A stretch of 64,000 nucleotides of DNA, taken from IMG/VR virus record IMGVR_UViG_3300021092_000008, one strand, 5' to 3'. Below, piece by piece: positions 15,799-45,770 of the stretch. The notes beneath the pieces were generated by a model. It was not told the DNA's origin. It made no database searches and saw only the letters and a program-made list of their open reading frames with translations. This DNA comes from a virus. Numbering within the stretch: the first letter of the stretch is position 1; every line of letters starts with the position of its first letter. The position numbers were made by a program, and so were the translations under genes.

Positions 15799-15805
15799 TT
15801 TGTAA

Positions 15806-16021
15806 ATGGATTATTTAAAAGTAAGCGGGCACGATGGTCTCGTAAGGGATAATCGTACTGGAGCGATTATAAATACTGATAAAAGTGCCTTCGAAGATGC
15901 GAGAAAAACTCGCTTATCTGCTTCATCATTCAATCAAATACAACAAGACGTTCAACTTCTTAAAGAAGAACTTTCTGATATCAAAAATCTTTTACGAGAG
16001 TTATTAAAAAATGGCAGTTAG
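15806..16021 (+). CDS. Small conserved T4-like phage protein with C-terminal coiled coil
   Basis: KVSGHDGLVRDNRTGAIINTD followed by the heptad segment VQLLKEELSDIKNLLRELL. Overlaps the next ATG. Confidence 0.75.
   Translation: MDYLKVSGHDGLVRDNRTGAIINTDKSAFEDARKTRLSASSFNQIQQDVQLLKEELSDIKNLLRELLKNGS
15868..15875 (+). promoter_or_regulatory. Putative late promoter TATAAATA inside the small ORF, upstream of the 3756-aa fibre gene
   Basis: Exact TATAAATA about 135 bp before the ATG at 16011. Could be coincidental in AT-rich coding DNA. Confidence 0.5.
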
Positions 16022-27903: not shown

Positions 27904-30900
27904 ATGAGCTTAAAGTTCAATCCTAACAAGCAAATTATTGAATCAACTGAGCTTAATATAAACGGTAAATCTTTCGTAACTATAAGTTCGGGAGAAGGAC
28001 TTGAAAGTAAGGAAATTATTAGAGTAGTTAGAAAAAATGGTGCTTCTAGAGTAGGTCTTAATAGGACTGGCGAAAGGATAGCAAAAGTAAATATTACTAA
28101 TCCTGGAGTTGGATATTTAATTACTCCAACTATTACAGTATCACAACCAGATATTATTAGCCGAAATTCAAAAGTAGCTGTTCTAAGTGCTGTAAGAGAT
28201 CCAGATACTGGAAGTATTATTTCAGTTATTATTACAGATCCTGGTAGAGGATATTCTCAACCACCAACAATAGTATTTGCAGAAGCTCCTTTAGGTGGAG
28301 TTACCGCTCAGGGTACGTGTGAATTAGACACTATTGACTTTGAATTAGATGTTCTTGGTGCTATTAGAACATCTGCTTCTATTGTTAGCGATAGTGCTAC
28401 GGTTACTAATTTAAACGTACAAAATTTTGTAACTCCTGGTATTTTACTTAGAGCTCCACGTCTAGGTTCATACACAAATTTAACAAATGCGAATCTACCT
28501 TTTTACGGTCAAACTGTTTATCCAGAGTTAACTGCTACTCCTCCTCTACAAGATCAAAGTAGAAGAATTGCCACCACAGAATTTGTTTACAATGTTGCCA
28601 CAAATGACGTAGGTGGTCGTATCTATGTTTCTTCTGAAATTGGTAGTGATACAAATAATGGTAGATCTCCTGCCAAACCAGTTAGGACAATCAAAAAAGC
28701 TGCTCAATTAGCAGCTGCTACTCCAAGTAGAGAAACTTTAATTGTTGCTGGTGGCGAATATTACGAAGATAACCCAATTTCAATTCCACCATTGTGTTCG
28801 GTTATTGGTGATAACTTACGTTTAGTAATCGTTAGACCAGTAAATCCAGGGCGCCATATGTTCAAGGCGTCCAACCAAAACTATATGAATGGTCTTACCT
28901 TCCGTGATGCTTTGGATTCGGAAGGTAACCCAGTATATACTCATAACTTTGCTTTTGTATTTGATGATAAGCAAAGATTTTACTTTGATGATGAGATTGG
29001 TGGAAATGATACTAGAATTGATGGGACAGAATCTTTCAGAAGAAGGTTCCCAATCGGTCACAAAATGTTCGGGCAAAAAAGTGCCATTCTTAACATTAAA
29101 GAACATACTGGTGACGTTGCTAAATTAAATGCTTTAATTACAGCAGGAACTAATATTGTTGGGCAACAAACGTCGTGTTCAGCAACTTTAACGTCTATTA
29201 TTTCTGCTACTCCTGCTCCTGATTATGTGTGGGAAGCTGAGCAAGAATATTTAGTTGGGGATATTGTAAGAGTAAGCAATTCAATTTATAAAGTAACCAC
29301 CTCAGGAAGTAGTGGAACTATTGCTTATAGTGGTGTATTAGCTACACCAAAAAATGCTGTAAACGGATCATCTGCATATATCTATTTGGGTGATAGAAGA
29401 GAAGCATCTTTAAATATTACAGTAAATGATAATTCTCCATCACAGTCTTTTGCTGATGATGAAGTTATTTCATACGTAATAAATTCTGTTACTTATCTAG
29501 CTAACGTAGCATTATTTAAATCAACTAGAGCAGAAGGTGAAGTTGTAAAATATGGCGAGACAGAATTAAGAGAATACATTGTAGAAGAAATTGATGCTAG
29601 TAAATGGTCTACTCACCCAACGCCAGGTGATAATGGTCAATTAACTCCTGGTAGTGGTGGTATAATTTTTAAATTTGCTGGTCTTCATGAATTTAAAGAA
29701 TTCGATATTGTTTTTATATCAAAACCAAATAATGCCCCAGTTGCTTTAAATTCATTCTTTGGTTTTCAAAGAGTTGATCAAGTTTTATATGATGCTGACG
29801 GTTTTTCTAGAAGAATTGTCGTTAAGAAACAAATTCAACCAAGTTACACCTCAGTATATTTACCACCAATTGGACAGTGTAAAGCAAAAGCAAAAACAAA
29901 GTATGTCGAGATTTCGCTATTAAACTCTCCATATGGATTTACTGATTCTACATTTACATCATATAGATTTATAGATGCTGTAACATTTATTAGAAATAAT
30001 AGAGATTTTATCGCTGAAGAAATTACTGGAGCAATTAGTTCTCGTTATCCAGATTTTGTCTATCCTGGTACAAATGCTAGTAGATTAAGATTTAAAGATG
30101 CTAGAAATTTAATCTACAAAAATTTAGATTTTATTGCCGATGAAGCTATTGGATGGTTGTGGAATGAATCAAACTTTGCTACTTGGGGAGCAGCAAACTT
30201 AGCATTAAAAAGTAAATGCCGTAGAGATGTCAAGATCTTTTTAAGAGGTCTGGCAAATGATTTATATGACGGATCAAATAAGAGTACAATTGTTGTAACC
30301 AGATCTTATTTTAATGCCATTACTGGAGTGCCAATTCCTAATGGTCTTGTTGGTGTTGAACCTCAATCTATTGCTGTTTTCACCAAAGCTGCTGAATATG
30401 CAAAATTAGCTGTTAACAATTCATTGCCTATAACTCCAACTTATTCGCCGTTAAAAGCATATAGAGATCTTTCAATAACTCATGATCCAACAACATACTT
30501 AACTGTTGGGGAAAATAATTGTGCTAACGTTAAAACCGCTATTACTACTTTAACAACCATTTTAACTAGTGCTATTAGTGCTGGCAATTTGACTGGATTA
30601 CCACCAGTTAGTTCTGACGATGGTGCTTCAGATGGAGAAAATCTTTGTAAGAGAGATCTTAAACATATTTTAAATGCTGTTATTGCCGATCTCCCATATG
30701 GTGGCAACGCTACTTCAATCGAAGCGGCAAAATCATATAGAAATAATTCTACTCAATCAGTTGAATATATTGATAACCAGCATAGACAATCTCGTTTTGC
30801 TTTCCAATTAGCAAGAGATTATGCTATTCTTGCCATGAGAAATTGGCAAACAAAAATTAGTCTGAAGTTTAAAAAAGATAGTGATATTGTTGAAGTTGTT

Positions 30901-33900
30901 TCAGCAGCAGGAACAATTGGTCTTGTTCCCAAAATGAGATTATATTCTTATAATAATCTAGAACAACAAGTAGAAACAGATTACTTCATTAAAGAAGTTG
31001 TATCTCCAACTCAAATAAGAATCTGGAAATTTAATACAGGTCTTTCTGGAGCAGATCACACTTTTGCTGATGGTGAAATAACAGGCTTTAAAACAAGAAA
31101 TATTAATTTAAAACTTAGTGAAGGTGAAACATCATTTACACCAATTTGGACAGATGATTTAGTTCCAAGAACTACCAACTATCCAGAATTTCCAGAATGT
31201 ACTAACGTTGCTGTTACATTAACAAACTTATTTACTTTAATTGATGATATTGTAGTAAACAATACGGATGATCGTTACTTTGACGCTACAAATCAGATAG
31301 AATTTAATAAAGATTTTATTGCTGAGGAAGTTAATGGTTGGTTAAAAGAGACATATGATGGATTTGCTTATCCATTACCAACTTTTACCAAAACAGTTAT
31401 TGATACTTCAAACGCTGATGCTTATCCATCTTTTATTCAAATAACTAATACTGCAAAAGTAAAGGTAGGGCAATTAGTAACTAGCGGTGACGCTATTCAA
31501 GATAATACATACATTACTTCTATTGATGTAGAAAATAAAATTTTATATCTAAGTAAATCATTAGAAAGTGAGATGGATAGTGTTACTATTCATCCTGATG
31601 TATATCTTGATGAGTCGATGAGATATAAGGACGCTTCTAACCTTATTCTCAAAAACAAAAACGAAATTACTGACAAAGCACTTGCTCAGATTGCTGTAGA
31701 ATTTCCAGACTTCGTTTTCCCTGGAAATTCAGTTACTGACGAATTCAGTAGATTTGCTGATGGATACCGTTTAATTACTCAAAATATCAAAGAAATTGTT
31801 GATCGTTCTTCAGCAGAAGTTGCTGTACAACATCCAGATTTTTATTTCCCTGCCGATGCTCAAACTACAAAGAGATCAAGATTTAAAGATGCTTATCGAT
31901 TAATCCAATTAAACAAACAGGAAATTATTGATACTGCTTATGCTACTATGGAAGCAAATGGTCTTCCATCCCCAGCTCCAACTGATCTAGAATCTAAGTG
32001 TAAGCGTGACATTGGTTTGTTAGTTGATTACGTATCACTTGATGTATTTGTTGGTGGCAACACCTATGCCAGAAAGTTTGTTCTAACATATTTCAATGGC
32101 AACACATTTATTCCAGATGGTTTGGAAGGAGAAGTTCCTCAGTCAATAACAGCATTCAATGCTGCTAGAGATTTGATGAAGCAAGCTATTGCTAATCAAT
32201 TAACAGTTAAAGATTTAACCATCACTCCTGGTGCTGCTACTTATGGTGGAGGTGGTGGAAACATTCCAAATGATAATGTTGGCGCTTGTGCTGATGTTCA
32301 ATCTGCTATCACATCATTAGTTGCTGTTGTAACTGACGTACTAACATCATTAAACATCAATAATCTAGTAAAAGAAAATGATGGCAACAATAACCGTTAC
32401 GAAGATTCGGCGGATTTAATTTATAATAACAAGCAAGAAATTATTGATCGTGCTGCTGCTCAGATTGCTGTGGAGTATCCAGATTTCTATTATCCTGGCG
32501 ATCCTCAAACTACATCTTCTTCAAGATTTAGAGATTCGTATCGTTTAATTCAGCAGAATAGGCAGCAAATTATTGACCGTGCTGCTGCTGAAATTGCTAT
32601 ACAATTCCCAGATTTCTATTATCCTGGAGATGCTCAAACAACTCCTACATCTAGATTTAAAGATGCTTATCGTTTAATTCAATTAAATCGAGATGAAATT
32701 ATAGCAAATGCTTATGCTGCTATTTTAATATTCAATCCAGAATTTGTAAATCCAAATCCACAAAAATGCCAGAGAGATATTGGTATTTTCGTCGATGCTT
32801 TATCTTTGGATATTTCTAATGGTGGTGGTAATACATATACTCGTAAATTTGTACTACAATATTTTAATAATGGTATTCCTATTTCCAATGGTCTTCTAGG
32901 AGAAGAAGCGGAATCAAATGTTGCTTTTAATAAAGCAAGAGACGAGATGAATAGGGCTGTTGCTAACCAGTTAACAGTTAAAGATCTTACTATTACCGCA
33001 GATCCAACACCTGGATCTGGAACTGTATCGAATACAAATCCCGACTCCTGTGCTAACGTTCAAGCAGCTATTACTAGCTTAGCACTTATTGTCACAGATA
33101 GAATTACTGCTGGTAATATAATTGGTTTACCATCTGAAACAACAGGAACGATTCCTGCTGGGGAAGCAAAGTGTAAGAGAGATTTAGCATACTTTGTTGA
33201 TTCTGTATCTCTAGATTTAACTTTAAAATCAAACAAATATTCACGTAAATTTGTACTACAATATTTTAATAATGGTATTCCTATTTCCAATGGTCTTGTA
33301 GACGAAACAGCTCAATCTGTAGTTGCTTTTAACATGGCTCGTGACATGATGAAGAATGCGATTACTAACCAGTTGTTCGCTAAAGATCTTACAATTACTC
33401 CAGACCCAGCACCTGGATCTGGAGCTGTATCAAATACAAATCCTAACTCCTGTACTAACGTAAGATCTACTATTGATACTTTATCTTCATTGATTACAGC
33501 AAGAATTACCGCAGGTAATTTAACTGGTCTTCCAGCAGAAGTAGAACCAGTTACACTCAAGGGAGAAACAAAGTGTAAGAGAGATATTGGGCAATTTGTT
33601 ATTGCTATTGAAGCTGATTTACGTCAATTAACCGATTTCAATACGAGAACATTCTTATCACGTTATTTCACTCCCGATGGTTCTTCTTGGATTAGTAATG
33701 GATTACAAAATGAGGAAGCACAATCTGTAGTTGCTTTTAACAAAGCAAGAGATGTAATTAATCAAGCGATCACCAATCAACTTTATTACAAAGACCTCAC
33801 AATTACAGCAGATCCTGTAACAGGAAGCAATGCCAATCCTTCTTCGTGTGCTGATGTTCAAACAGCAATTACAACTCTAACGACACTTGTAACAACCAGA

Positions 33901-36900: not shown

Positions 36901-39900
36901 GACACATCCTATCCAGAATGTGCCAATATTATTACTACATTAATTAATCTATTTGCCATCTTAGATGCTGTGCTAAATGGTGGAGATTTACCAGAGGCTA
37001 CTAATGATAACGTTGCTTTAGTTGTTAGAAATCGAGGAACTCTTTACAACCCAACAATTGTACAAGGTTCTGGTACAATGATTGATGCTGGTAACAGACC
37101 AGTAATTCGTGGTAGAATGATTAATGCCAATGACATTATTGAAACTTCTCCATATATTCAAAACTGTTCGATTATTTCATTCTTAGGTGGTGGTGGTTGT
37201 GAAGTTGATGGTTCTAAGATTAAACAAATTAACGTTCCTCGTCCAGGTTTGAAAGAAGATGGATCATCAAAGCTTGCCCCACAAGGTAAATCGATGGTTG
37301 CTAACGCCTTCACTATTATTTCACAGGGAGGCACTGGATACTTAGTTAAGAATGATGGTTACACTCAGTTGGTATCTGTATTCTGTATCTTCTGCCAAGA
37401 TGGTATTCTTGCCGAATCTGGTGGATATGCTTCTGTTACCAACTCTGCTTCAAACTTTGGTACATATGCTCTACGTGCTACTGGATATAGAGAAGAACCA
37501 TATGTATTTGATATTGCTACCATTAGCGAAATTGGTGTTACGGGCGCTGGTAAAACAATATTCCGTGTAGATGGATTAGGAAGAAGACCACAAGAAAACT
37601 TTGTTGTTAAAATTGATGGATATGAAAATGTCGTATCAGACATTGAATTTTTTATAACTGTAGTATCTCAAACAACAGTTGGTGGAACTGGAGAAGTTAG
37701 TTCTAGAATTGAGTTAAATGATGCTCTTTTAATAAAAAATAAAGAATCTGGTCAGATAGTCAATCTCAACACTTCAGAATTAATTAATAAAACAATTAGA
37801 TTATTCAGACCATCTATCATTAACTCTTCTGGTCATTCGTTTGAATATATTGGTTCTGGTATTAATTACTATGCTCTACCAGAAAATGGTGGACAGAAGA
37901 TTGAAGATAACGAGCAAGTATCACAAAGTTACGGTAGAGTATATGCTTCTGGTACTGATGAGGCAGGTGACTTCAAGGTAGGTCGTACCGTGAAGATGGA
38001 AAACAGAACTGGTAACATTTACTTTACTGGTCAAGTATCTATCTCGGAAATTGAATTCTTACGTATTCGTGGTGGTGATCTTGTTGTTACTGGATTTGAT
38101 GCTTCGCCAACATTAGGTGGTGCTGCTGCTACAAACCAAAAACTACCAACACAGAAAGCTGTTAGAGACTTTGTAACTAATAACCTAGGTCCATATTTTG
38201 GTAAACCATATTCAACAAATCCAGTTCCAAATGCTCTTGTAGAACTAGGAAATGATGGTAAGATTAATCTAGATCAAATTCCACCTATCAGACCATTTAA
38301 AGTTTATACAGTAGAAAACACTTCCCAAAGACTTGCTTTAGAAGGATTAAATTCTGGTGATATTGCTGTACAAGTTACAAGATTGAATGATACTATCAGT
38401 GCTTCTGATGTTGATGTAGCAAATAATAAAATCTTTACTCCTAAAACTGGATTCTCTAGCGGTCAAATTCTTTCAATTGTATCAAGTCCAGTTAACCCAA
38501 TTCAAACAACTGATGGTCCTATAGTTGCTGGAGAGTCTTATTATCTTATTGTTCTTCCAAATAATTTTGTTCAGTTAGCAGCATCTCCAGAAAATGTTAT
38601 TGACGAAATTCCTATAACAATTACTGACGCTGGATCTGGCAATACAGAAGTTCAAATCGCTACTGGTACAGTTTCATATATTTTAAATAATGATGTAGAT
38701 ACTCAATTTTTAGCTTATCCTCCAAATATATCCACAACATTTACAACTGGATCATTAGTTATTGGTTCGGCAACAGGTGCTATTGGTTCAGTAACTAGTA
38801 CTTTATATGGTACTGTATTCTCAATTTCAGTTTCTGGCGGTGGTAATGTTTATTTAAATGAAACTCCATCTGTAGTTATCTCTGCTCCGAATCAAGGTGA
38901 TGGTGTTCAAGCAACAGCAACTCCTGTTGTTGTTGGTAGTAGAATTTCGGCAGTTGAAATTACCAATAAAGGAAGTGGATATGATACCACACCAACTGTA
39001 TCTATTTCTATAGGAGAAGTTGCTTGGTCAGCAAATCAAACATATCTTGTCGATGATTTAATTTTTGTTGGAACAAATCTTTATAAAGTAACAACAGAGG
39101 GAACTTCAGGAACATCTGCTTTCTCTGGTCAATCTGGCATTCCTCAACCAGCAGATGGTGGTACATGTTTCTATGTTTACGTCGGGGAAAGAGCTCAATT
39201 AACATCTTTTGTTGAAAGTAGAGTTTCTATTAATATTGAAAATTCTGTTAAATTTACTGATGTTGACAATATTAATAGTCATAATGCTACTCCTGTCACA
39301 GTAAACATATCTAGAGTTGTTAATACATCAGGATCAAATGAATTTAACTGGGTTCCACTGACATCAGCTTCTATTGATGCTGCTTCTATTACTACTGGTA
39401 CTATTTCTACTTCTAGATTAGCATTACCTAATACTGGTTCAGCAAACTCGTTTACATTCTTAAGGGGCGATCAATCATTTAAACCAGTTGTACAAGGTGT
39501 TAAATTACCAGAATCTAAATTCTTAGTAAAAACTGTTCTATTCTCACCTGGAAGTGGTGATCCTTTAATCCCGCCAGTAAACTACATCACTATTCCATTA
39601 ACGAGTTTAATACAAACTGGACAGAGAGTTATTGGTAATGGTGTGTCAGCAGATACAATTGTTCTTGAAATATTAACTGTTGGTGGTAATACTAGAGTTG
39701 TATTAAGTTCTACGCTAATTAATGATGTCCCTGTTGGTACAGTATTTACCATTATAAGAACAGAAACTGCATTACAATTTGATTCTAACTTTACCAAAGG
39801 AGCATATGCTGCTGGCATCTTTATAGAAAGTCCAGGTAACTATTACACTTCAACTATTACCAATGGTAATATAGGAGAAAATACAATTAGCGTAGTTGAC

Positions 39901-42900
39901 GTTACCAAAGCTGTTATTGGGCAAAAGGTAACTGCTGAGGGAGTTGCTACCAATGCTATTATCACCAGCATTCAGCTTGATAGTGGAACTTCGGGAACAA
40001 TTACTTTATCAGCAAATAATACTGCTAATATAGTAAACAAAGAAGTTCAGTTTGGAGTTCCATTCTCAACTGGTACGTTCAATAACGTAGAACTATTCGG
40101 TTCAAATACAGGTTCTGGTGCTAAAGCAACATTTACTGTTCAAAATGGTTTAATTACTAATGCCCTTATAACTGATGGTGGTAATGGATATACAGAAGAT
40201 TTTGATATCGATCCCATTCCAGGTGCTTTAGGATTAGGAACTGGCGCTAAACTTACTGTTCTTGCTTCAACTCAGCAAACATACTTCTCTAGCATCGAAA
40301 TGGATGTCAAGAGAGTTACAAATCAAACAACATCATTAGATCCTTTTGGTACAGTTGGTGTTGCTAGATTCCAGAAATCACAATATACATATGGTCCTGA
40401 TGGAGCAGTTACTTTAAAAACTGGTCCAGAATCAGGATTAGATTCTGACTTACTTGATGGTAAGCAAGGTGTATTCTATCTTGATGCTTCAAACTTAGAA
40501 TCTGGCACTCTAAGACCAGATAGATTATCTGGTACATATTCAATTGATATTACTGGCAAATCTGGTACTACAACTAGAGTAGAAACTATAACAGATTCCA
40601 TCAACGCTGTACCAGCTCCTTCTGCTTACGGATCAGGTTTAAGTTTGGCAGCAAGAATATCTTCTAATTTTAGATCTTCTCTAGTTGATAGAACCTTAGA
40701 AGATGAAGGAGAGCGTGTAACATTACTGACTATTAGACCATCTGGTATTGGTACAGATGCTAGTAATGGTGGTTTAAAACAGTTAGCATTTACTGATGGT
40801 ACTCTTAACGTTGGTACAGGTGGTGGTGGTGCTAGTTCTTCTACAACTCTTGATGATGTTGTTCCAAATATGTACATTCGTGGTACAGGAAACATTATCC
40901 CAACTGATCCAACAAACGCTTTCTCACCTTGGTATAAGGTATGGACTTCTGGTAATGATGGATTTGGATCTGGATTAGATGCTGATAAACTACAAGCAAA
41001 AGATGCCAAGTTCTATACAAATGCTCTAAACCTTGATGGTGGCAGCATCAATGATTCCAGATTACAACCAATAATGTCTTCTAAGAAATTCTTAGAATCA
41101 TTAACTACTGTTAGATATATTGACAAAGCACACTATGAAATTTATTTCTCTGGAAGATTAAATAACGGAGATCTTAACTTCGTAATTGGCACCACTTACT
41201 CATTATACAATGATATTCTCCAAGTAGTTGGTCAAGCAACATTAAAGCTGATAGAGCAAAAATTCCCTGTAGAAGAGGTTAAAACAGAACTTAATTACGT
41301 AATTCTTACAATTCAATTAGATAGTGGTTCTATTGGTTCTGCTACAAAAATTGGATTTACTGGTTTTGAACAAACATGGAATTCACTAAGACTTTCGCCA
41401 TTTGCCACCTATACTTCTTCTACATTACAAGATGATGGTACTGGAGCTAGATTAATCTTAGGAAGAAATGATGGTAACAATGTTGCCAACAACACTCCTT
41501 CTAGTGGTGCTATCATTGATTTCCATTCAAGCGGAGCATTCAATGAATATGATGTAAGATTCCAAGTCACTGGGGGTACTACTAATAGTGGTAATGGTGC
41601 TTTAAATATTACTGGTAATGGATTTACTTATAACAGCAATACTGTCTGGCACTCTGGAAATGACACTGATATTTCAGGTCTGAATGCCAACTTCTTACAA
41701 GGTATTACAAAATCTCAGGTAATGAGATCTGATGAGAATACAGCAACGGCTGGATCATTAACCGTAACTGGAGTTACAACATTATCAAGTTTCGTAACTA
41801 TTAATGACGCTGCTCAATTAGCAGATAACACAATTATTGATCCTGATATTTATTCTAACAAAGTTATTGCTGGTAATTTAGCAGATGGTGGAGGATTCTC
41901 TGTTATTGGTATTGGCGGTAATGCTGGAGTAGGTAAATCTTGGGCAATAGGTCATAATGGAACTTCATTGTACTTTGGTATTGGCGATGGAAGTGCTGCT
42001 GATACATTAACAACATGGGCACAAGTAGATGCCGACAGAACAATTAGATTCTTTGCTAAAAATAATAGCTCAATATTCTTCAGTTCTGGTACTAATGATT
42101 ATAGAATTTGGAATGAAAATAATGATGGTTCTGGTTCTGGTTTAGATGCCGATCTCTTAGATGATAGAGATTGGAACTCTAGAGATAAATCAATTCTCAG
42201 AACTTCTGGATCTCATATTGCTGGTGGTTTATACATTAATGATGGCACTAAATATCAAACTTCAAACTTTGGTTTCTTAATTAGGCATTCTGATGCCAAT
42301 GGTGTAAGTGCTGGTGCTGGTGGTAGACTAGATTTTGTATTTGGAGACGATGCTTCTAAAGCAGCAGATCAAACTGTATCAACTCTTCGTACATTCTCAT
42401 TTGATAAATCTGGTCAATTAATTCTTCCAGCGCCTACAGGTACTTCTCCATTATCTGTAACTTCTACGACTAAAGTAACAAATTTAAATGTTGATTTACT
42501 AGATGATCAGGATGGTAGTTATTATACAAACGTCAACAATGCTAATGCTGGTACTTTAGCTGCTGTTAGAGGTGGTACAGGAATCAATGCTTATGCTATT
42601 GGTGATATGTTGTATGCTTCAGCAACAACCCCAACACTAGCAAAATTAAATATTGGTACTACCAACCAAATTCTTACAGTAAATTCTGACGCCACTGCTC
42701 CTAAATGGACCTCACCATCAGCGATTAATATTGGATCAGCAACTAAAATTGCTGTTACATCAGATGCTGCTACATCAACTAATTTGGTGGTTGGATTCTT
42801 CTCATCTACAGAAACCCCAGCAGATATTAAATATAGCTCAGACTCTTCACTTGGATTATTCTTTAATCCATCTGTAGGAAGATTAACAGCTAAAACATTC

Positions 42901-45018
42901 AATGGAGCTTTAAGTGGAAATGCTACAAGTGCTACTAACGTTTCTGCTGGTGGTGCTGCTGGATCTCTACTTTATCAATCAGGAACAAATACAACAACAG
43001 TTTTAGGAATTGGTACTTCTGGTCAGGTATTGGTAGTAGGTGGGTCTTCGGCTCCTATTTGGACAGCACAAATTAACATTACTGCTGGTAATATTAATGG
43101 TGGAGTTCGAGGGCAAGTATTATATCAATCTGGCGTTGGAGCAACAGCAAAATTACCTGTAGGTGCTGCTGGATCTTTACTCCAGACTAATGGAACTAAT
43201 CAAAATCCTTCATGGGTGGCACAAAATACAATCACTGCTGGCAACATACATGCTGGTGTTGCTGGCGATCTCTTATATCAATCTGCTGCCTCAACAACTT
43301 CTAAGTTAACCATTGGATCTGCTGGTCAGGTATTGGTAGTAAATACCAATGCTACGGCTCCTTCTTGGACAGCACAAAGCAATATTACTGCTGGTAATAT
43401 TGCTAGCGTTGATGGTGATACTGGATCTTTACTATATCAATCTGCCGTAAATGTTACGTCCAAGTTCTCACAAGGAACAGCTGGTCAAGTATTAAGTTCA
43501 CAAGGAACTGGAGCAGCTCCTCTTTGGATCAACCAATCTTCTATTACTGCTGGTAACATACATGCTGGTGTACGTGGCGATCTCTTATATCAATCTAACG
43601 TTGGAACAACTGTTAAATTAAATATTGGATCTGCTGGTCAGGTATTGGTAGTAAATGCTGGTGCTACGGCTCCTTCTTGGGTAGCACAAAATACAATCAC
43701 TGCTGGTAATGTGGATGGTGGAGCTATTGGTGAAGTTCTATATCAATCTGCTGCTGGAGCAACAGCTAAATTGCCAGTATCAAATTCTGGATTTATTTTA
43801 TCAACTCAAGGAGCAAATAACCCACCTGCTTGGATTAATCCAAATACAATTACTGCTGGTAATATTAGTGGTGGTGCTGCTGGAGAAATTCTATATCAAT
43901 CTGGTACTGGAGCAACAGCAAAACTTCCTGTGGCAGCAGCATCTGCTGGACAAGTTCTTGCTCTAAGTTCCTCCAAATTACCAGTTTATATTAATCAATC
44001 TTCAATTGTTGCTGGCAACATTACCAGCATCGCCGCCGATACCAATAAAATTTTGTATCAGTCTGCCGTTAATACTACATCTAAATTACCAACAGGCGAG
44101 GCTGGTCAAATATTAAGGTCTGGTGGAAGCCTTGCTGTTCCTGGTTGGGTTGCCCAATCAACTCTTACTGTTGGAGCTGCTGCTAACGTATCAGGTGGTG
44201 GTGCTGGACAAATACATTACCAAAGCGGTCCTGGAGCAACGGCATTCTTAGCGGCAGGACAGAATACACAGGTTCTGATTGGTGGAGCAGCGGCGCCTGC
44301 TTGGTCTAATATTTCTGGTCTTTCTGTTGCCTCTGCTGCAAATATTACTGCTGGTGTTGCTGGCGATCTCTTATATCAATCTGCTGCCTCAACAACTGTT
44401 AAATTAAACATTGGATCTGCTGGTCAGGTATTAGTTGTTAACACTGGCGCTAGTGCCCCAACGTGGGTTAACCCATCAACATTAACCGTAGGTAATGCTA
44501 CCACAGCAGTCAATACCACTGCTGGTATGCCTAATAATACTGACACTGTTTTAAATGCTCGTATTATTAGAAACAACAATAGCACCAGCGCCAATGACGG
44601 TATGTATATTGGTTATGGTAATACTAATAGTGGTCTTACTAGATTGTATGGCGGTGGTTCTACTTCAAATAGGTTAGAAATCAATTCCGCAGGTAATGTT
44701 ACTGTAACTGGTACAGTAACAGCAAGTTCTGATATCAGACTTAAGAAAAATATCAAAACAATTGAAAATGCTTTAGATAAAGTTCTAAATCTTAGAGGTG
44801 TAGAATTTGATCGAATTGATATTGATACTCACCAGATTGGTTTAATTGCTCAAGAGGTTGAGGAAGTTATTCCAGAAGTTATATTTGAAAATGAAGATGG
44901 CATGAAGACTGTTGCTTATGCTAATATGGTATCAGTCCTCATTGAGGCAATCAAAGAACAACAAATTCAAATAAATATGCTACAAGAGGAAATTAAATCT
45001 CTCAAAGACAAACCATAA
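27904..45018 (+). CDS. Giant tail fibre (5704 aa): split beta-helix, array of 12 phycobiliprotein-like helical domains, repeated distal shaft, C-terminal peptidase S74 intramolecular chaperone
   Basis: RIATTEFV and RIYVS...GSDTNNG...RTIKKA beta-helix start. Twelve C-x-R-D repeats. GLDADLLD fibre motifs. Eleven LYQS-type repeats. C-terminal SDIRLKKNI...GLIAQEVEEVIPEV...YANMVSVLIEAIKE. Confidence 0.85.
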   Translation: MSLKFNPNKQIIESTELNINGKSFVTISSGEGLESKEIIRVVRKNGASRVGLNRTGERIAKVNITNPGVGYLITPTITVSQPDIISRNSKVAVLSAVRDPDTGSIISVIITDPGRGYSQPPTIVFAEAPLGGVTAQGTCELDTIDFELDVLGAIRTSASIVSDSATVTNLNVQNFVTPGILLRAPRLGSYTNLTNANLPFYGQTVYPELTATPPLQDQSRRIATTEFVYNVATNDVGGRIYVSSEIGSDTNNGRSPAKPVRTIKKAAQLAAATPSRETLIVAGGEYYEDNPISIPPLCSVIGDNLRLVIVRPVNPGRHMFKASNQNYMNGLTFRDALDSEGNPVYTHNFAFVFDDKQRFYFDDEIGGNDTRIDGTESFRRRFPIGHKMFGQKSAILNIKEHTGDVAKLNALITAGTNIVGQQTSCSATLTSIISATPAPDYVWEAEQEYLVGDIVRVSNSIYKVTTSGSSGTIAYSGVLATPKNAVNGSSAYIYLGDRREASLNITVNDNSPSQSFADDEVISYVINSVTYLANVALFKSTRAEGEVVKYGETELREYIVEEIDASKWSTHPTPGDNGQLTPGSGGIIFKFAGLHEFKEFDIVFISKPNNAPVALNSFFGFQRVDQVLYDADGFSRRIVVKKQIQPSYTSVYLPPIGQCKAKAKTKYVEISLLNSPYGFTDSTFTSYRFIDAVTFIRNNRDFIAEEITGAISSRYPDFVYPGTNASRLRFKDARNLIYKNLDFIADEAIGWLWNESNFATWGAANLALKSKCRRDVKIFLRGLANDLYDGSNKSTIVVTRSYFNAITGVPIPNGLVGVEPQSIAVFTKAAEYAKLAVNNSLPITPTYSPLKAYRDLSITHDPTTYLTVGENNCANVKTAITTLTTILTSAISAGNLTGLPPVSSDDGASDGENLCKRDLKHILNAVIADLPYGGNATSIEAAKSYRNNSTQSVEYIDNQHRQSRFAFQLARDYAILAMRNWQTKISLKFKKDSDIVEVVSAAGTIGLVPKMRLYSYNNLEQQVETDYFIKEVVSPTQIRIWKFNTGLSGADHTFADGEITGFKTRNINLKLSEGETSFTPIWTDDLVPRTTNYPEFPECTNVAVTLTNLFTLIDDIVVNNTDDRYFDATNQIEFNKDFIAEEVNGWLKETYDGFAYPLPTFTKTVIDTSNADAYPSFIQITNTAKVKVGQLVTSGDAIQDNTYITSIDVENKILYLSKSLESEMDSVTIHPDVYLDESMRYKDASNLILKNKNEITDKALAQIAVEFPDFVFPGNSVTDEFSRFADGYRLITQNIKEIVDRSSAEVAVQHPDFYFPADAQTTKRSRFKDAYRLIQLNKQEIIDTAYATMEANGLPSPAPTDLESKCKRDIGLLVDYVSLDVFVGGNTYARKFVLTYFNGNTFIPDGLEGEVPQSITAFNAARDLMKQAIANQLTVKDLTITPGAATYGGGGGNIPNDNVGACADVQSAITSLVAVVTDVLTSLNINNLVKENDGNNNRYEDSADLIYNNKQEIIDRAAAQIAVEYPDFYYPGDPQTTSSSRFRDSYRLIQQNRQQIIDRAAAEIAIQFPDFYYPGDAQTTPTSRFKDAYRLIQLNRDEIIANAYAAILIFNPEFVNPNPQKCQRDIGIFVDALSLDISNGGGNTYTRKFVLQYFNNGIPISNGLLGEEAESNVAFNKARDEMNRAVANQLTVKDLTITADPTPGSGTVSNTNPDSCANVQAAITSLALIVTDRITAGNIIGLPSETTGTIPAGEAKCKRDLAYFVDSVSLDLTLKSNKYSRKFVLQYFNNGIPISNGLVDETAQSVVAFNMARDMMKNAITNQLFAKDLTITPDPAPGSGAVSNTNPNSCTNVRSTIDTLSSLITARITAGNLTGLPAEVEPVTLKGETKCKRDIGQFVIAIEADLRQLTDFNTRTFLSRYFTPDGSSWISNGLQNEEAQSVVAFNKARDVINQAITNQLYYKDLTITADPVTGSNANPSSCADVQTAITTLTTLVTTRITAGNLGTTKSSFLAAATYDVLVGEIKCKRDVKKFVEAVSLDVFTKGNKYSREFVNQYFTNVSSPLSNGLVNEETQSITAFNMARDMMRKAVTNQLTIKDLTITAGPAQYNGSGGNIPNLPSGTAAACVDVQAGIASLSKIITDVITAGSLTGLDAFPETQGVFGIGETKCRRDIGIIVDAVAKDVADGSNWRSVTAARSYFQEGQPISNGLVDEEAASIFAFNKARDLMILAIRNQLNYRDLSITADPERLTNFDKFVCSDVASGITTLVSIITTTINDGDLDSLSGITVNRGTYSFNEIKCKRDIKLLIDAVINDITLNDSNANSINYANLYKEQNGNIKLIDNQLIQSVAAFRKARDLCILAMRNWIEFPGKQYYQKEYTDLDYVRDEFLIIDTETPYCQNVATAITNRFDLIINILTGDAENSNLDTANQIAINENFIINEALASGEVSFPGVSIPNITKCKRDLRIILRSVQRDIILGGTVGIVRSADSYLTGATLDVGFVGDQLGKTLHIYDYAKHMAIAATRNWNFEIRDCTTVSGNNVVTVPNTNGVVLGMRVSANEFRYTDLTPDSYAYVIGINRGSNTITLGNSKSLTAAAFPANASTTTAKLFFSFSEVGAPWFDAANNITANKTFIKQEAVGYIENIYPYLTTLNPSTSLANLVSQYDNATCQRDIGYVLDALIFDLRYGGNSETIKAAELYRNASGHLDYIGNQLVQSIETFEKVKDLAVLAMRNWKTSATTTYTKQFATADYVVNNDILPDPAGYPQCAFVEASIESLFQQFVDIITNDSGGTKIDAARLIARNFKYIAEEAVGAANEEYPLVTIPNEAKCLRDTQLIMTAWIKDLITGGNSATIQATQSYLTNTGAVTFIQDELQKSRYAYEYAKNLVKLAVTNNLPDPGEYTDEDPFTDLSILPDPLTNDNTDPTSCASVQSTIETLWSILDSTLAQSGAPLPAATYGTQYNPRKYFPANFPGIFAGDYFQGLQRASTDEFITEDTSYPECANIITTLINLFAILDAVLNGGDLPEATNDNVALVVRNRGTLYNPTIVQGSGTMIDAGNRPVIRGRMINANDIIETSPYIQNCSIISFLGGGGCEVDGSKIKQINVPRPGLKEDGSSKLAPQGKSMVANAFTIISQGGTGYLVKNDGYTQLVSVFCIFCQDGILAESGGYASVTNSASNFGTYALRATGYREEPYVFDIATISEIGVTGAGKTIFRVDGLGRRPQENFVVKIDGYENVVSDIEFFITVVSQTTVGGTGEVSSRIELNDALLIKNKESGQIVNLNTSELINKTIRLFRPSIINSSGHSFEYIGSGINYYALPENGGQKIEDNEQVSQSYGRVYASGTDEAGDFKVGRTVKMENRTGNIYFTGQVSISEIEFLRIRGGDLVVTGFDASPTLGGAAATNQKLPTQKAVRDFVTNNLGPYFGKPYSTNPVPNALVELGNDGKINLDQIPPIRPFKVYTVENTSQRLALEGLNSGDIAVQVTRLNDTISASDVDVANNKIFTPKTGFSSGQILSIVSSPVNPIQTTDGPIVAGESYYLIVLPNNFVQLAASPENVIDEIPITITDAGSGNTEVQIATGTVSYILNNDVDTQFLAYPPNISTTFTTGSLVIGSATGAIGSVTSTLYGTVFSISVSGGGNVYLNETPSVVISAPNQGDGVQATATPVVVGSRISAVEITNKGSGYDTTPTVSISIGEVAWSANQTYLVDDLIFVGTNLYKVTTEGTSGTSAFSGQSGIPQPADGGTCFYVYVGERAQLTSFVESRVSINIENSVKFTDVDNINSHNATPVTVNISRVVNTSGSNEFNWVPLTSASIDAASITTGTISTSRLALPNTGSANSFTFLRGDQSFKPVVQGVKLPESKFLVKTVLFSPGSGDPLIPPVNYITIPLTSLIQTGQRVIGNGVSADTIVLEILTVGGNTRVVLSSTLINDVPVGTVFTIIRTETALQFDSNFTKGAYAAGIFIESPGNYYTSTITNGNIGENTISVVDVTKAVIGQKVTAEGVATNAIITSIQLDSGTSGTITLSANNTANIVNKEVQFGVPFSTGTFNNVELFGSNTGSGAKATFTVQNGLITNALITDGGNGYTEDFDIDPIPGALGLGTGAKLTVLASTQQTYFSSIEMDVKRVTNQTTSLDPFGTVGVARFQKSQYTYGPDGAVTLKTGPESGLDSDLLDGKQGVFYLDASNLESGTLRPDRLSGTYSIDITGKSGTTTRVETITDSINAVPAPSAYGSGLSLAARISSNFRSSLVDRTLEDEGERVTLLTIRPSGIGTDASNGGLKQLAFTDGTLNVGTGGGGASSSTTLDDVVPNMYIRGTGNIIPTDPTNAFSPWYKVWTSGNDGFGSGLDADKLQAKDAKFYTNALNLDGGSINDSRLQPIMSSKKFLESLTTVRYIDKAHYEIYFSGRLNNGDLNFVIGTTYSLYNDILQVVGQATLKLIEQKFPVEEVKTELNYVILTIQLDSGSIGSATKIGFTGFEQTWNSLRLSPFATYTSSTLQDDGTGARLILGRNDGNNVANNTPSSGAIIDFHSSGAFNEYDVRFQVTGGTTNSGNGALNITGNGFTYNSNTVWHSGNDTDISGLNANFLQGITKSQVMRSDENTATAGSLTVTGVTTLSSFVTINDAAQLADNTIIDPDIYSNKVIAGNLADGGGFSVIGIGGNAGVGKSWAIGHNGTSLYFGIGDGSAADTLTTWAQVDADRTIRFFAKNNSSIFFSSGTNDYRIWNENNDGSGSGLDADLLDDRDWNSRDKSILRTSGSHIAGGLYINDGTKYQTSNFGFLIRHSDANGVSAGAGGRLDFVFGDDASKAADQTVSTLRTFSFDKSGQLILPAPTGTSPLSVTSTTKVTNLNVDLLDDQDGSYYTNVNNANAGTLAAVRGGTGINAYAIGDMLYASATTPTLAKLNIGTTNQILTVNSDATAPKWTSPSAINIGSATKIAVTSDAATSTNLVVGFFSSTETPADIKYSSDSSLGLFFNPSVGRLTAKTFNGALSGNATSATNVSAGGAAGSLLYQSGTNTTTVLGIGTSGQVLVVGGSSAPIWTAQINITAGNINGGVRGQVLYQSGVGATAKLPVGAAGSLLQTNGTNQNPSWVAQNTITAGNIHAGVAGDLLYQSAASTTSKLTIGSAGQVLVVNTNATAPSWTAQSNITAGNIASVDGDTGSLLYQSAVNVTSKFSQGTAGQVLSSQGTGAAPLWINQSSITAGNIHAGVRGDLLYQSNVGTTVKLNIGSAGQVLVVNAGATAPSWVAQNTITAGNVDGGAIGEVLYQSAAGATAKLPVSNSGFILSTQGANNPPAWINPNTITAGNISGGAAGEILYQSGTGATAKLPVAAASAGQVLALSSSKLPVYINQSSIVAGNITSIAADTNKILYQSAVNTTSKLPTGEAGQILRSGGSLAVPGWVAQSTLTVGAAANVSGGGAGQIHYQSGPGATAFLAAGQNTQVLIGGAAAPAWSNISGLSVASAANITAGVAGDLLYQSAASTTVKLNIGSAGQVLVVNTGASAPTWVNPSTLTVGNATTAVNTTAGMPNNTDTVLNARIIRNNNSTSANDGMYIGYGNTNSGLTRLYGGGSTSNRLEINSAGNVTVTGTVTASSDIRLKKNIKTIENALDKVLNLRGVEFDRIDIDTHQIGLIAQEVEEVIPEVIFENEDGMKTVAYANMVSVLIEAIKEQQIQINMLQEEIKSLKDKP
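29965..36984 (+). repeat. Array of 12 nested globin/phycobiliprotein-like helical domains
   Basis: 12 N-segments ([RK][FY]xDAxxLIxxNxxxIxxxA...P), 12 C-x-R-D-[ILVT] motifs and 12 downstream C-xx-[VI]-xxx-[IL]-xx-L motifs, counted directly in the translation. Confidence 0.75.
42595..44490 (+). repeat. Eleven distal fibre repeats of about 50 aa
   Basis: Consensus GxLLYQSxxxxTxKLxIGxAGQVLxxxxxxxAPxWxxQxxITAGNI. Ten copies have YQS and one has YAS. Confidence 0.85.
44728..45018 (+). other. Peptidase S74 intramolecular chaperone / autocleavage domain of the giant fibre
   Basis: S-D-x-R-L-K at 44728-44745, GLIAQEV motif and terminal coiled coil. Implies a homotrimeric fibre. Confidence 0.9.
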
Positions 45019-45021
45019 ATA
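45014..45021 (+). promoter_or_regulatory. Late promoter variant CATAAATA
   Basis: Overlaps the TAA of the giant fibre gene and precedes a small ORF with a GAGG ribosome-binding site. Confidence 0.6.
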
Positions 45022-45069
45022 ATTATGTTACAATATCCTTCGTACAGTATTATTAAAGAGGAACTTATT

Positions 45070-45282
45070 ATGTCTACTGACACTACCGCTCTTAGAGAAA
45101 ATTTTGAGAATCAACTCAAAAATATTAATGAGCAAATTACCAAACTTGAAGAAGATCTATCAAAAGCAAGAGAGTATAGAACCAAACTACAAGGGGGTCT
45201 AGAAACTCTCCAAATTTTAGATCCTAAGGAAGAAGTTTCAGCAGAAGAAACTCCCGTTTCCGAAACTGAAGTTGTAGAATGA
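45070..45282 (+). CDS. Small coiled-coil protein with acidic tail (possible fibre assembly factor)
   Basis: ATG at 45070 follows GAGGAAC, so it is preferred over the track start at 45025. Heptad segment LRENFENQLKNINEQITKLEEDL...KLQGGLETL. Confidence 0.7.
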   Translation: MSTDTTALRENFENQLKNINEQITKLEEDLSKAREYRTKLQGGLETLQILDPKEEVSAEETPVSETEVVE

Positions 45283-45289
45283 TTAAACC

Positions 45290-45310
45290 ACCCCCTTCGG
45301 GGGGTTTTTT
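45290..45310 (+). terminator. Rho-independent terminator with cUUCGg tetraloop
   Basis: ACCCCC-TTCG-GGGGGT followed by a T-tract. Confidence 0.9.
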
Positions 45311-45323
45311 ATTGTGAGGTGAT

Positions 45324-45767
45324 ATGAAATTTGAATCTATTATAGGGCAATATTTAAATAAAAAACAAGCGTTTTCTTATCCATCACAATTCGCAATGAT
45401 CCGTATTGTGTATAAAGATTTGGGCGATAATAAATTGATGTCTCAAAATTGGTATGAGTATCAATATCCTAGGGGTAGACCTTATAGACAAGAGTATCAT
45501 AAGTATGAATATATTACAGAAAAAGAAGTAATATTTCAATCATATAATATGGATTGGGAATTGAATTGTAATTATCAATTTAATTATGTGAACGGATTTT
45601 GGATTGCCATGCCTTGTGGGGAATGTATCGTAAAAGGAATTAGAATTAACAGTGAGGTTAAATTTAATGATTCTCAGTACATAGCAAAAGATACTGGTTA
45701 TGATGCTGACGGTAGATTAGTTTTTGGCAAGTCTACTGGCGGACCCTTCATTTTTGATAGGGTATAA
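45324..45767 (+). CDS. cpeT: T-type phycobiliprotein lyase (CpcT/CpeT family), short phage form
   Basis: GQYLNKKQAFSYPSQFAMIRI, QNWYEY...PYRQ and DTGYDADGRLVFG...GPFIFDR match the N..QA...P..F..I / PYRQ / D.G.D..G..V.G...PF.F pattern of CpcT/CpeT. GAGGTG RBS. Located just upstream of gp13 as in other cyanomyoviruses. Confidence 0.85.
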   Translation: MKFESIIGQYLNKKQAFSYPSQFAMIRIVYKDLGDNKLMSQNWYEYQYPRGRPYRQEYHKYEYITEKEVIFQSYNMDWELNCNYQFNYVNGFWIAMPCGECIVKGIRINSEVKFNDSQYIAKDTGYDADGRLVFGKSTGGPFIFDRV

Positions 45768-45770
45768 ATA
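45763..45770 (+). promoter_or_regulatory. T4 late promoter TATAAATA
   Basis: Exact consensus 21 bp upstream of the gp13 ATG. Confidence 0.85.

What the first reader, a model, noticed from the sequence alone, without database searches (positions are those of the whole stretch)
27904..45767. Candidate new system: giant virion fibre with 12 phycobiliprotein-like domains encoded next to a CpcT/CpeT bilin lyase
Seen: the 5704-aa fibre has 12 C-x-R-D-[ILVT] motifs, 10 of them preceded by Lys. Cys codons are at 30217, 30646, 31999, 32767, 33172, 33574, 33982, 34411, 34807, 35293, 35920 and 36403, e.g. KCKRDIGLLVDYVSLDVFVGG and KCLRDTQLIM. There are also 12 second Cys motifs at 30520, 31198, 32287, 33049, 33451, 33847, 34282, 34678, 35104, 36214, 36697 and 36919, e.g. 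DPAGYPQCAFVEASIESLF. Twelve N-segments all keep an Asp, e.g. FDAANNITANKTFIKQEAVGYIENIYP. A T-type lyase gene starts 306 bp after the fibre stop. Established: phycocyanin binds bilin at C-x-R-D (alpha KCARDIGYYLR, beta ACLRDMEIILR). Beta subunits carry a second bilin at Cys153/155 (DPAGITPGDCSALASEIASYF), contacted by the Asp of RLDAVNRITSNA. CpcT-family lyases act at that second site. Inference: each repeat is a phycobiliprotein globin core lacking the X/Y dimerisation helices, with both bilin pockets retained. That would allow up to 24 bilins per chain. The phage lyase may chromophorylate the phage's own fibre rather than host antennae, giving a pigmented virion for light sensing, photoprotection or host mimicry.
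Basis: partly seen in the sequence, partly recalled or inferred. Interest (0 to 1): 0.95.

Follow-up and report, generated by a model that had tools for sequence, protein, structure and literature searches.

The report
Phycobiliprotein-like domains in cyanophage fibre
A giant tail-fibre protein of a marine T4-like cyanophage contains 12 domains that are true relatives of the host's light-harvesting phycobiliproteins and keep both pigment-attachment sites; each of the phage's two such genes lies beside its own bilin-lyase gene, so it can now be tested whether virus particles carry pigment and sense light, but pigment binding is not shown.

Summary
ORF 27904-45018 encodes 5704 aa. All 12 C-x-R-D cysteines and all 12 second cysteines sit in frame at the stated codons. 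cpeT starts 306 nt after the fibre stop.

The homology to phycobiliproteins (PBPs) is real:
- Pfam PF00502 scores 91 bits over the array.
- Profiles of the repeat hit only PBPs in the PDB (best E 5e-7).
- hhalign against CpcA gives 95% probability.
- An AlphaFold model matches PBPs only (phycoerythrin beta, Z 15, rmsd 2.4 Å over 144 residues), and it starts after the X/Y helices.

Among 1448 repeat cores in 149 diverged proteins, 94% keep CxRD. The two cysteines are never lost together, which argues against an obligatory disulfide.

Of 26 cyanomyovirus genomes, 21 carry both the repeat and cpeT, 4 carry neither, 1 carries the repeat only, and none carries cpeT only. A gp20 tree shows this is essentially one phylogenetic split. 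This genome has two PBP-like giant genes, each beside its own cpeT paralogue (46% identical).

P-HM1, P-HM2 and S-PM2 have the repeat and need light to adsorb. P-SSM2 and P-SSP7 lack it and adsorb in the dark.

Bilin attachment is inferred, not shown. This scan has already flagged the same thing on other DNA (29 notes, at least 25 genomes). I found no paper describing it.

The parts
27904..45018 (+). Giant virion fibre gene, 5704 aa
   Evidence: Open frame and translation. Relatives in 275 cyanophage records are annotated tail fiber, short tail fiber, tail protein or structural protein.
29893..36999 (+). Array of 12 phycobiliprotein-like domains: 12 N-hairpins (helices A/B with the conserved Asp), 12 cores (helices E-G with K-C-x-R-D) and 12 final helices each preceded by the second Cys
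   Evidence: Profile scan of the window. PF00502 E 9.6e-26 over this region. PDB profile hits are all PBPs. The order N N C H C N N N N C H N N N C H C H C H C H C H C H N C N C H N C H H is bracket-balanced.
35761..36303 (+). Unit that was folded (Cys codons 35920 and 36214)
   Evidence: AF2 gave pLDDT 79 and pTM 0.77. The Foldseek top 50 are all PBPs, TM 0.51-0.62. VIA gave Z 15.0 to phycoerythrin beta 5aqd_M, model 1-171 against chain 32-184.
33115..35184 (+). Five tandem 'core-only' units (helices E, F, G, H) whose A/B hairpins lie upstream at 31252-32613
   Evidence: Profile positions about 45-177 only. The two-unit AF2 model shows four confident helices per unit. N and core counts balance.
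44728..44880 (+). C-terminal intramolecular chaperone domain (Peptidase_S74), typical of trimeric tail fibres and spikes
   Evidence: PF13884, E 7.8e-16, 58.6 bits.
45025..45282 (+). Small ORF (85 aa; the likely start is 45071, behind an AAGAGG site), Glu/Lys-rich, no family match
45290..45305 (+). G+C-rich hairpin followed by a T-run (terminator-like), 18 nt before the cpeT ATG
   Evidence: 4 overlapping calls of this hairpin found against 0.3 expected; sequence.
45324..45767 (+). cpeT-1, a short phage-type T-type bilin lyase homologue (147 aa)
   Evidence: PF06206, 36.1 bits against a cut-off of 21. Weak PDB matches to CpcT 4o4o and phage CpeT 5hi8. It is 46% identical to a second copy at G000:2222-2674.
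45763..45770 (+). T4-type late promoter box TATAAATA at the cpeT stop, ahead of the next structural gene
46624..47508 (+). gp14 neck protein. It shows that cpeT-1 lies inside the late structural module.
   Evidence: PF11649, E 2.1e-22.

Best explanation
Shown: the central 2,400 residues of this tail-fibre-type protein are 12 domains homologous to phycobiliproteins. Each is a globin-type A-B-E-F-G-H fold without the X/Y dimerisation hairpin. The domains are apparently nested, with one domain inserted in the B-E loop of another. Each domain keeps the Cys82/84-x-Arg-Asp bilin site. Nearly all keep a Cys at the N-cap of the last helix (the beta-153 position) and the Asp that contacts that bilin in beta subunits. 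Inferred: late in infection the apo-domains are chromophorylated with host-made (or phage-made) bilin. The second Cys would be served by the phage's own T-type lyase. The first Cys would be served by a host S-type lyase or by autocatalysis, as I recall for ApcE. The released virion would then carry up to 24 thioether-linked bilins per chain. The most likely use is light sensing by the fibre, which would explain the light-dependent adsorption of cyanomyoviruses. Photoprotection or simple stabilisation of the fold are alternatives.
For: Homology:
- PF00502 scores 91 bits.
- Unit profiles hit only PBPs in the PDB, best E 5e-7 and 2.7e-6, with the repeat Cys aligned on Cys84.
- hhalign gives 95% probability, E 2e-8, against CpcA. 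Against CpcB it places the second Cys opposite beta-Cys153 and the Asp opposite beta-Asp39.

Fold:
- The Foldseek top 50 are all PBPs.
- VIA gives Z 15 to PE beta, 14 to ApcE and 13.8 to APC, with other globins at 11 or below.

Constraint:
- CxRD is kept in 94% of 1448 cores from 149 proteins that are under 50% identical to each other. In the rest of the unit only a handful of positions are comparably conserved (mean column identity 22%), and HMMER no longer aligns the C-terminal half to PBPs.
- Cys1 is kept in 96% of units, Arg 92%, Asp 96%, Cys2 91%, and the N-helix Asp 97%.
- Units that lose the Cys also lose R/D.
- Cys1 and Cys2 are never lost together (184/6/9/0).

Lyase link:
- 21 of 21 cpeT-carrying phages have the repeat.
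- cpeT lies within 3 kb of a PBP-like gene in the window, L003, L020, L024, L025, S-PM2, Syn1, S-RSM4, S-CAM1 and S-CAM3.
- This genome has two PBP-like genes, each with its own adjacent cpeT paralogue.
- cpeT always sits among late structural genes.

Phenotype:
- P-HM1 and P-HM2 (repeat present) do not adsorb in the dark.
- P-SSM2 and P-SSP7 (repeat absent) do adsorb in the dark.
- S-PM2 adsorption needs light but not host photosynthesis (PMC6628666).
- The roles of phage cpeT, pebS and pcyA are called unresolved in PMC3037559 and PMC2984593.
Against: - No bilin has been shown on any cyanophage particle, and I know of no report of coloured or autofluorescent virions.
- The co-occurrence is phylogenetically confounded. 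All 21 double-positive phages form one gp20 clade. P-SSM2, S-SSM7, S-SM2 and B23 form its sister clade, and S-CRM01 is an outgroup.
- B23 has six units but no detectable cpeT.
- In Syn9, P-RSM6, Syn19 and others, cpeT lies 50 kb or more from the PBP-like gene.
- P-SSM2 carries bilin-synthesis genes (pebS, pcyA; PMC2984593) without the repeat or cpeT, so those genes are not explained.
- No ho1 or bilin reductase is found in the 156.6 kb held for this phage, which is 81% complete.
- A single unit scores only about 15 bits against PF00502.
- The Cys2 to beta-153 alignment has low confidence.
- The phenotype correlation rests on n=5 and follows the same phylogenetic split.
Confidence: 0.45

Rival explanations
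1. The domains are apo, purely structural or adhesive helical modules that descend from a captured host phycobiliprotein gene. The conserved Cys, Arg and Asp would serve folding, metal binding, or inter-domain or inter-chain disulfides in oxidising seawater. cpeT would be an ordinary host-directed auxiliary gene whose linkage to the fibre reflects shared ancestry and its placement in variable tail-fibre islands.
For: - The co-occurrence collapses to about one split on the gp20 tree.
- B23 has the repeat without cpeT.
- cpeT is far from the PBP-like gene in many phages.
- No pigmented virions have been reported.
- The X/Y helices and the alpha-beta partner that complete PBP pockets are missing.
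Against: - In a merely structural descendant, the chromophore-contact residues should be the least constrained, not the most constrained, positions.
- The two Cys are never lost together.
- Cys is otherwise avoided in this protein: 9 in 3335 aa outside the array.
- A second cpeT copy sits beside the second PBP-like gene.
Confidence: 0.38
2. The domains act inside the infected cell, or on entry, as mimics of host phycobiliproteins. They would bind host lyases, linkers or free bilins (a sponge or decoy) rather than functioning as a pigmented fibre outside the cell.
For: The pocket and attachment motifs are conserved. The phage lyase ΦCpeT is reported to bind PEB tightly without transferring it to host CpeB; this is my recollection of Gasper et al. 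2017, a paper that is not held.
Against: - The protein has a tail-fibre architecture with a C-terminal S74 chaperone.
- Its relatives are annotated as structural or tail proteins.
- It lies in the late structural module.
- A decoy would not need 12-36 copies on a multi-thousand-residue (5704 aa here) fibre.
Confidence: 0.08
3. The resemblance to phycobiliproteins is convergent or a chance motif match in a helical repeat.
For: Single units are below the Pfam cut-off. A single-sequence phmmer search against the PDB finds nothing. Helical folds give middling Z scores easily (note).
Against: - Two independent profiles hit only PBPs (96 and 127 sequences within the loose reporting limits, every one of the 60 listed a PBP) and nothing else.
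- hhalign gives 95% probability.
- PBPs occupy the top 8 VIA ranks and the top 50 Foldseek ranks over the full domain length.
Confidence: 0.02

Closest known systems
Phycobiliprotein beta subunits (CpeB, CpcB; Pfam PF00502)
   Same: Same A-B-E-F-G-H globin-type fold (Z 15, rmsd 2.4 Å, 144 residues). Cys82-x-Arg-Asp on helix E, a second Cys just before helix H as at beta-153/155, and an Asp on helix B as at beta-39.
   Different: No X/Y helices and no alpha/beta partner. Twelve copies sit in one 5704-aa virion fibre, apparently nested. The Cys1-Cys2 spacing is about 95 residues, against 71 in CpcB (Cys82 to Cys153), with a longer G-H loop. In sequence the CxRD motif is closest to CpcA (K-C-x-R-D-I-G-Y). 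No pigment has been shown.
ApcE (core-membrane linker) phycobiliprotein domain
   Same: A single PBP-type domain embedded in a large multidomain protein, with a loop insertion (VIA rank 2, Z 14.0, 4xxi_A). From my own knowledge it attaches its bilin autocatalytically, which is a precedent for lyase-free loading of the first Cys.
   Different: ApcE is a cellular antenna component with one domain. It has no second Cys site and no association with a virion.
Phage T-type lyase ΦCpeT of P-HM1 (PDB 5hi8) and cyanobacterial CpcT (4o4o)
   Same: cpeT-1 and cpeT-2 match PF06206 above the cut-off, and cpeT-1 weakly matches both solved proteins. They are short, like ΦCpeT.
   Different: There are two diverged copies (46% identity) in one phage, each beside a PBP-like giant gene. 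The substrate is unknown.
Light-dependent adsorption of cyanomyoviruses (Jia et al. 2010; Liu et al. 2019, PMC6628666)
   Same: The phages reported to need light to adsorb (S-PM2, P-HM1, P-HM2) all carry the repeat. Those that adsorb in the dark (P-SSM2, P-SSP7) do not.
   Different: The published work names no photoreceptor and leaves open whether the host receptor or the tail fibre senses light. The link made here is a correlation from five phages.

Membership tests
Phycobiliprotein (Pfam PF00502) | Sequence profile match | tested here: met
   The array as a whole scores 91 bits against a cut-off of 22.2. Single units score only about 15 bits. The reverse profiles hit only PBPs, best E 5e-7. 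hhalign gives 95% probability.
Phycobiliprotein (Pfam PF00502) | Globin-type fold with helices A, B, E, F, G, H | tested here: met
   AF2 pLDDT 79. Foldseek top 50 all PBPs. VIA Z 15.0, 14.0 and 13.8 to PE beta, ApcE and APC.
Phycobiliprotein (Pfam PF00502) | N-terminal X/Y helical hairpin that makes the alpha-beta monomer | tested here: not met
   The structural alignments start at PBP residue 32-34 or later. The model has only two helices before helix E.
Phycobiliprotein (Pfam PF00502) | Cys82/84 with Arg and Asp two and three residues on (central bilin site) | tested here: met
   12 of 12 units in the window. 94% of 1448 cores elsewhere. HMMER aligns it on Cys84.
Phycobiliprotein (Pfam PF00502) | Beta-type second site: Cys153/155 before helix H, plus Asp39 | tested here: inconclusive
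   Cys2 directly precedes the last helix in the model, and hhalign places it opposite beta-Cys153 and the Asp opposite Asp39, but with low per-column confidence. Conservation is 91% and 97%.
Phycobiliprotein (Pfam PF00502) | Covalently bound bilin chromophore | not testable with these tools
   Needs spectroscopy, Zn-blot or mass spectrometry.
T-type bilin lyase (CpeT/CpcT, PF06206) | Profile match above the curated cut-off | tested here: met
   cpeT-1 scores 36.1 bits and cpeT-2 44.4 bits, against a cut-off of 21.
T-type bilin lyase (CpeT/CpcT, PF06206) | Bilin binding and transfer to a Cys153-type site | not testable with these tools
   Biochemical assay needed.
Phage tail fibre or spike with an intramolecular chaperone | C-terminal Peptidase_S74 chaperone domain | tested here: met
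   PF13884, 58.6 bits against a cut-off of 22.
Phage tail fibre or spike with an intramolecular chaperone | Presence in the virion | not tested
   Supported only by the annotations of relatives ('structural protein', 'tail protein') and by its position in the late structural module.

The most novel reading that the evidence does not exclude
T4-like cyanophage particles carry covalently bound bilins on phycobiliprotein-derived domains of their fibres, loaded by the phage's own T-type lyase. These domains act as a photoreceptor on the virion that gates adsorption by light. This would be the first pigment-based light sensor on a virus particle, and it would explain the light-dependent adsorption of cyanophages that has been known since 1979.
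Probability: 0.28. Interest if true: 0.97.

Novelty: new variant of a known kind. Interest (0 to 1): 0.86.

Why it matters
Three long-standing puzzles become directly testable with existing isolates such as S-PM2, P-HM1/2 and Syn9:
- What phage cpeT is for. Its role is called 'unresolved' in PMC3037559.
- Why some cyanomyoviruses adsorb only in the light, independently of host photosynthesis (PMC6628666).
- What the giant cysteine-bearing fibre proteins do.

If the domains bind bilin, this would be the first chromophore-bearing virion structure and a new branch of the phycobiliprotein family: monomeric, lacking X/Y, nested, with up to 36 matched profile stretches per chain. Such domains could also be useful as small fluorescent tags. 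If they do not bind bilin, it remains a clear case of a host antenna protein recruited as a building block of a phage fibre.

Tried and rejected
- A single unit searched by phmmer against the PDB found nothing.
- The search for related loci with the unit alignment failed because no conserved stretch was found. A single long query worked.
- The two-unit 'core-only' AF2 model gave no meaningful PDB match as a whole. It therefore cannot show how core-only units are completed. Nesting rests on the balanced N/core counts only.
- My first N-hairpin HMM was contaminated by linker regions. I replaced it with a strict motif.
- The search for homologous proteins in the 'near' length range returned only fragments of giant proteins and no stand-alone homologues or PBPs.
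The environmental context of the 30-36-repeat proteins was therefore not examined.
- Gasper et al. 2017 on ΦCpeT is not held. What I say about it is from memory.
- No ho1, bilin reductase or psbA is present in the 156.6 kb held for this phage.
- The intradomain disulfide idea was tested by co-loss of the two Cys and is not supported. I could not measure the SG-SG distance because model coordinates are not exposed.
- Co-occurrence as independent evidence is downgraded after the gp20 tree.
Full report
**1. What is there**

The window comes from a 156.6-kb IMG/VR record of a T4-like cyanomyovirus, estimated 81% complete. By portal protein gp20 its nearest isolates are S-CAM3 (77% identity), S-CAM1, S-RSM4, Syn1 and S-PM2.

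ORF 27904-45018 (+) encodes 5704 aa. It ends in a Peptidase_S74 intramolecular chaperone domain (PF13884, 58.6 bits), which is the hallmark of trimeric fibres and spikes. It lies upstream of the neck, sheath, portal and capsid genes.

Downstream of the fibre stop the order is:
- a small ORF (45025-45282);
- a G+C-rich hairpin with a T-run (45290-45305);
- cpeT (45324-45767; PF06206, 36 bits against a cut-off of 21);
- a late-promoter box TATAAATA at 45763;
- the next structural genes, including gp14.

**2.

The protein has 35 Cys. Of these, 26 lie in the 2369-aa array and 9 in the remaining 3335 aa.

A profile scan finds the array only in this ORF of the window, between 29893 and 36999. It comprises six 'full' units, six 'core-only' units, six isolated N-hairpins and one orphan last helix.

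**3. Homology to phycobiliproteins**

- Pfam PF00502 scores 91 bits (E 9.6e-26) over the array. Single units reach only about 15 bits, always in the same register (profile positions 27-108), and only when the N-hairpin is included.
- A profile of the 11 window units searched against all PDB sequences returns only phycobiliproteins. The best hit is C-phycocyanin alpha at E 5e-7, with the repeat's K-C-x-R-D-I-G-Y aligned on K-C-A-R-D-I-G-Y of CpcA.
- A 115-sequence profile that adds units from 30 IMG/VR loci gives the same result (E 2.7e-6).
- hhalign against CpcA and CpcB alignments, built from cyanobacterial loci fetched with a motif pattern, gives 95.3% probability (E 2e-8) for CpcA and 95.6% for CpcA plus CpcB together. 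For CpcB alone it gives 69.6% (E 4e-5). That alignment puts the N-helix Asp on beta-Asp39 and the second Cys on beta-Cys153, but with low column confidence.

**4. Fold**

AlphaFold2, run without templates on the 115-row alignment, models window 35761-36303 at pLDDT 79 and pTM 0.77. The helices are at residues 3-13, 15-29, 51-71, 75-82, 95-116 and 153-170. Cys1 is on the third long helix, and Cys2 is the residue before the last helix.

The Foldseek top 50 PDB hits are all phycobiliproteins, mostly beta subunits, with TM 0.51-0.62 over about 175 columns. An independent all-against-representatives search with VIA-align ranks these hits first:

| Hit | Z | Details |
|---|---|---|
| Phycoerythrin beta (5aqd_M) | 15.0 | rmsd 2.4 Å, 144 residues, chain residues 32-184 |
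| ApcE bilin-binding domain | 14.0 | |
| Allophycocyanins | 13-14 | |

Other globin-like sensors score Z 11 or below.

BFVD holds the same fold only in cyanophage or uncultured-phage proteins named 'structural', 'tail' or 'hypothetical'.

**5. Constraint on the pigment-site residues**

Conservation in about 205 units from 31 giant proteins:

| Position | Conserved |
|---|---|
| Cys1 | 96% |
| Arg | 92% (Asp in 11 units) |
| Asp | 96% |
| Cys2 | 91% |
| N-helix Asp | 97% |

An exhaustive HMMER search of 1.84 billion representatives finds 1536 clusters at E ≤ 0.001, of which 556 are at E ≤ 1e-30, with up to 36 matched profile stretches per protein. In the best 149 proteins, 1448 cores carry CxRD in 94.4% of cases, CxDD in 1.9% and neither in 3.7%. 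None of the ten proteins looked up carries an informative name.

Units that lose the Cys also lose R/D (for example FRRN and AFRAN).

Among 199 cores with an adjacent last helix, both Cys are present in 184, only Cys2 in 9, only Cys1 in 6, and neither in 0. The two cysteines therefore do not behave as an obligatory disulfide pair.

**6. Nested architecture**

With a strict motif for the N-hairpin, the window protein has 12 N-hairpins and 12 cores in a bracket-balanced order. L001 has 12 and 12, L002 has 13 and 13, and many smaller proteins have 4 and 4. Truncated ORFs and regex errors account for some imbalances.

The five tandem core-only units fold as four confident helices each. They lack A/B helices of their own. 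The likeliest reading is repeated insertion of one domain into the B-E loop of another. This is inference only.

**7. Link to cpeT**

In 50,697 phage records the repeat is found only in cyanophages (275 records). cpeT is found in 311 cyanophage records.

Whole-record searches of 25 isolates plus this genome gave the following:

| Repeat | cpeT | Genomes |
|---|---|---|
| present | present | 21 |
| absent | absent | 4 (P-SSM2, S-SM2, S-SSM7, S-CRM01) |
| present | absent | 1 (B23) |
| absent | present | 0 |

A gp20 tree shows that the 21 double-positives form one clade. P-SSM2, S-SSM7, S-SM2 and B23 form its sister clade (support 98/95), and S-CRM01 lies outside. The association therefore amounts to about one event, and twelve of the isolates were picked from the hit lists of one feature or the other. 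It is weak as independent evidence.

Two findings are stronger:
- cpeT lies within 3 kb of a PBP-like giant gene in the window, L003, L020, L024, L025, S-PM2, Syn1, S-RSM4, S-CAM1 and S-CAM3. It lies on different sides in different lineages.
- This genome has two PBP-like giant genes and two cpeT paralogues that are 46% identical. One pair is the window's. The other is arranged as 2OG-oxygenase, cpeT-2 (G000:2222-2674), two small ORFs, a 3660-aa PBP-like gene (G000:3677-14659) and a tail-collar gene.

In Syn9, P-RSM6 and others, cpeT is not adjacent to a PBP-like gene. It still sits in the baseplate module next to gp5.

**8. Phenotype correlation from the literature**

Liu et al. 2019 (PMC6628666) report the following:
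- P-HM1 and P-HM2 do not adsorb in the dark.
- P-SSM2 and P-SSP7 do adsorb in the dark.
- In S-PM2, light-dependent adsorption does not depend on host photosynthesis.

P-HM1, P-HM2 and S-PM2 carry the repeat. P-SSM2 and P-SSP7 do not. This is five phages, and the pattern follows the same phylogenetic split.

Sullivan et al. 2010 and Clokie et al. 2010 call the roles of phage cpeT, pebS and pcyA unresolved.

**9. Verdict**

The structural claim is established as far as computation allows. Chromophorylation is the best-supported functional reading (about 0.45), but it is an inference.

Arguments against it:
- No pigmented virions have been reported.
- B23 has the repeat without cpeT.
- P-SSM2 carries bilin-synthesis genes (pebS, pcyA; PMC2984593) without the repeat or cpeT.
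- No bilin-synthesis genes are found in the held part of this genome.

I found no paper describing PBP-like domains in phage structural proteins. This scan has flagged the same feature before on other DNA: 29 notes in at least 25 genomes, with similar verdicts. Those notes are not independent evidence.

Noticed in passing
Outside the window: G000:C1:1575-15998 (locus L202): A second PBP-like giant gene (3660 aa, at least 5 units) is preceded by a 2OG-Fe(II) oxygenase gene, a second cpeT (150 aa, 46% identical to the window's) and two small ORFs. It is followed by a tail-collar-domain gene. The arrangement resembles that in S-PM2.
   Followed up: partly
window 29893-36999: The N-hairpins and cores of the PBP-like domains are bracket-balanced (12 and 12), which suggests domains inserted within domains. 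The same balance is seen in L001, L002 and several 4-unit proteins.
   Followed up: partly
window 1-27281: Three further giant ORFs lie upstream: 1-5766 (runs to the window's first base, so its 5' end may lie beyond the window); 7687-15798 (2703 aa, DUF4815); and 16011-27281 (3756 aa, Laminin_G_3/ConA-like). A gp8-like baseplate gene is at 5821-7647. None of them contains PBP-like units.
   Followed up: partly
L031 (NC_006820, S-PM2) 7929-19268: The RefSeq record lists 16 tRNA features with coordinates inside the 3779-aa 'short tail fiber' CDS, all under one locus tag. This looks like an annotation or coordinate artefact in the record.
   Followed up: no
Loci L006, L021, L023-L030 (units listed): A minority of units have C-x-D-D instead of C-x-R-D (for example QDCLDDV and NCRDDI). 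A few units have lost the Cys together with R/D (TKFRRNL and KPAFRANI).
   Followed up: partly
Phage records W07, W15, W16, W23 versus W01, W04, W06 and others: Phage CpeT comes in two classes. One is a full-length, host-like form (PF06206 E 1e-32 to 1e-43, frames of 183-230 aa) that lies just upstream of a PBP-like gene in Syn1, S-RSM4, S-CAM1 and S-CAM3. The other is a short form (frames of about 134-190 aa, weak split matches), usually next to gp5.
   Followed up: no
MN695335 (B23) 206341-208902: B23 and B3 carry six PBP-like units in a 1513-aa ORF. These are the best tblastn match to the window's units (45% identity). By gp20, however, B23 sits with S-SM2 in the clade that otherwise lacks the repeat, and it has no cpeT. 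This suggests lateral transfer of the fibre module.
   Followed up: partly
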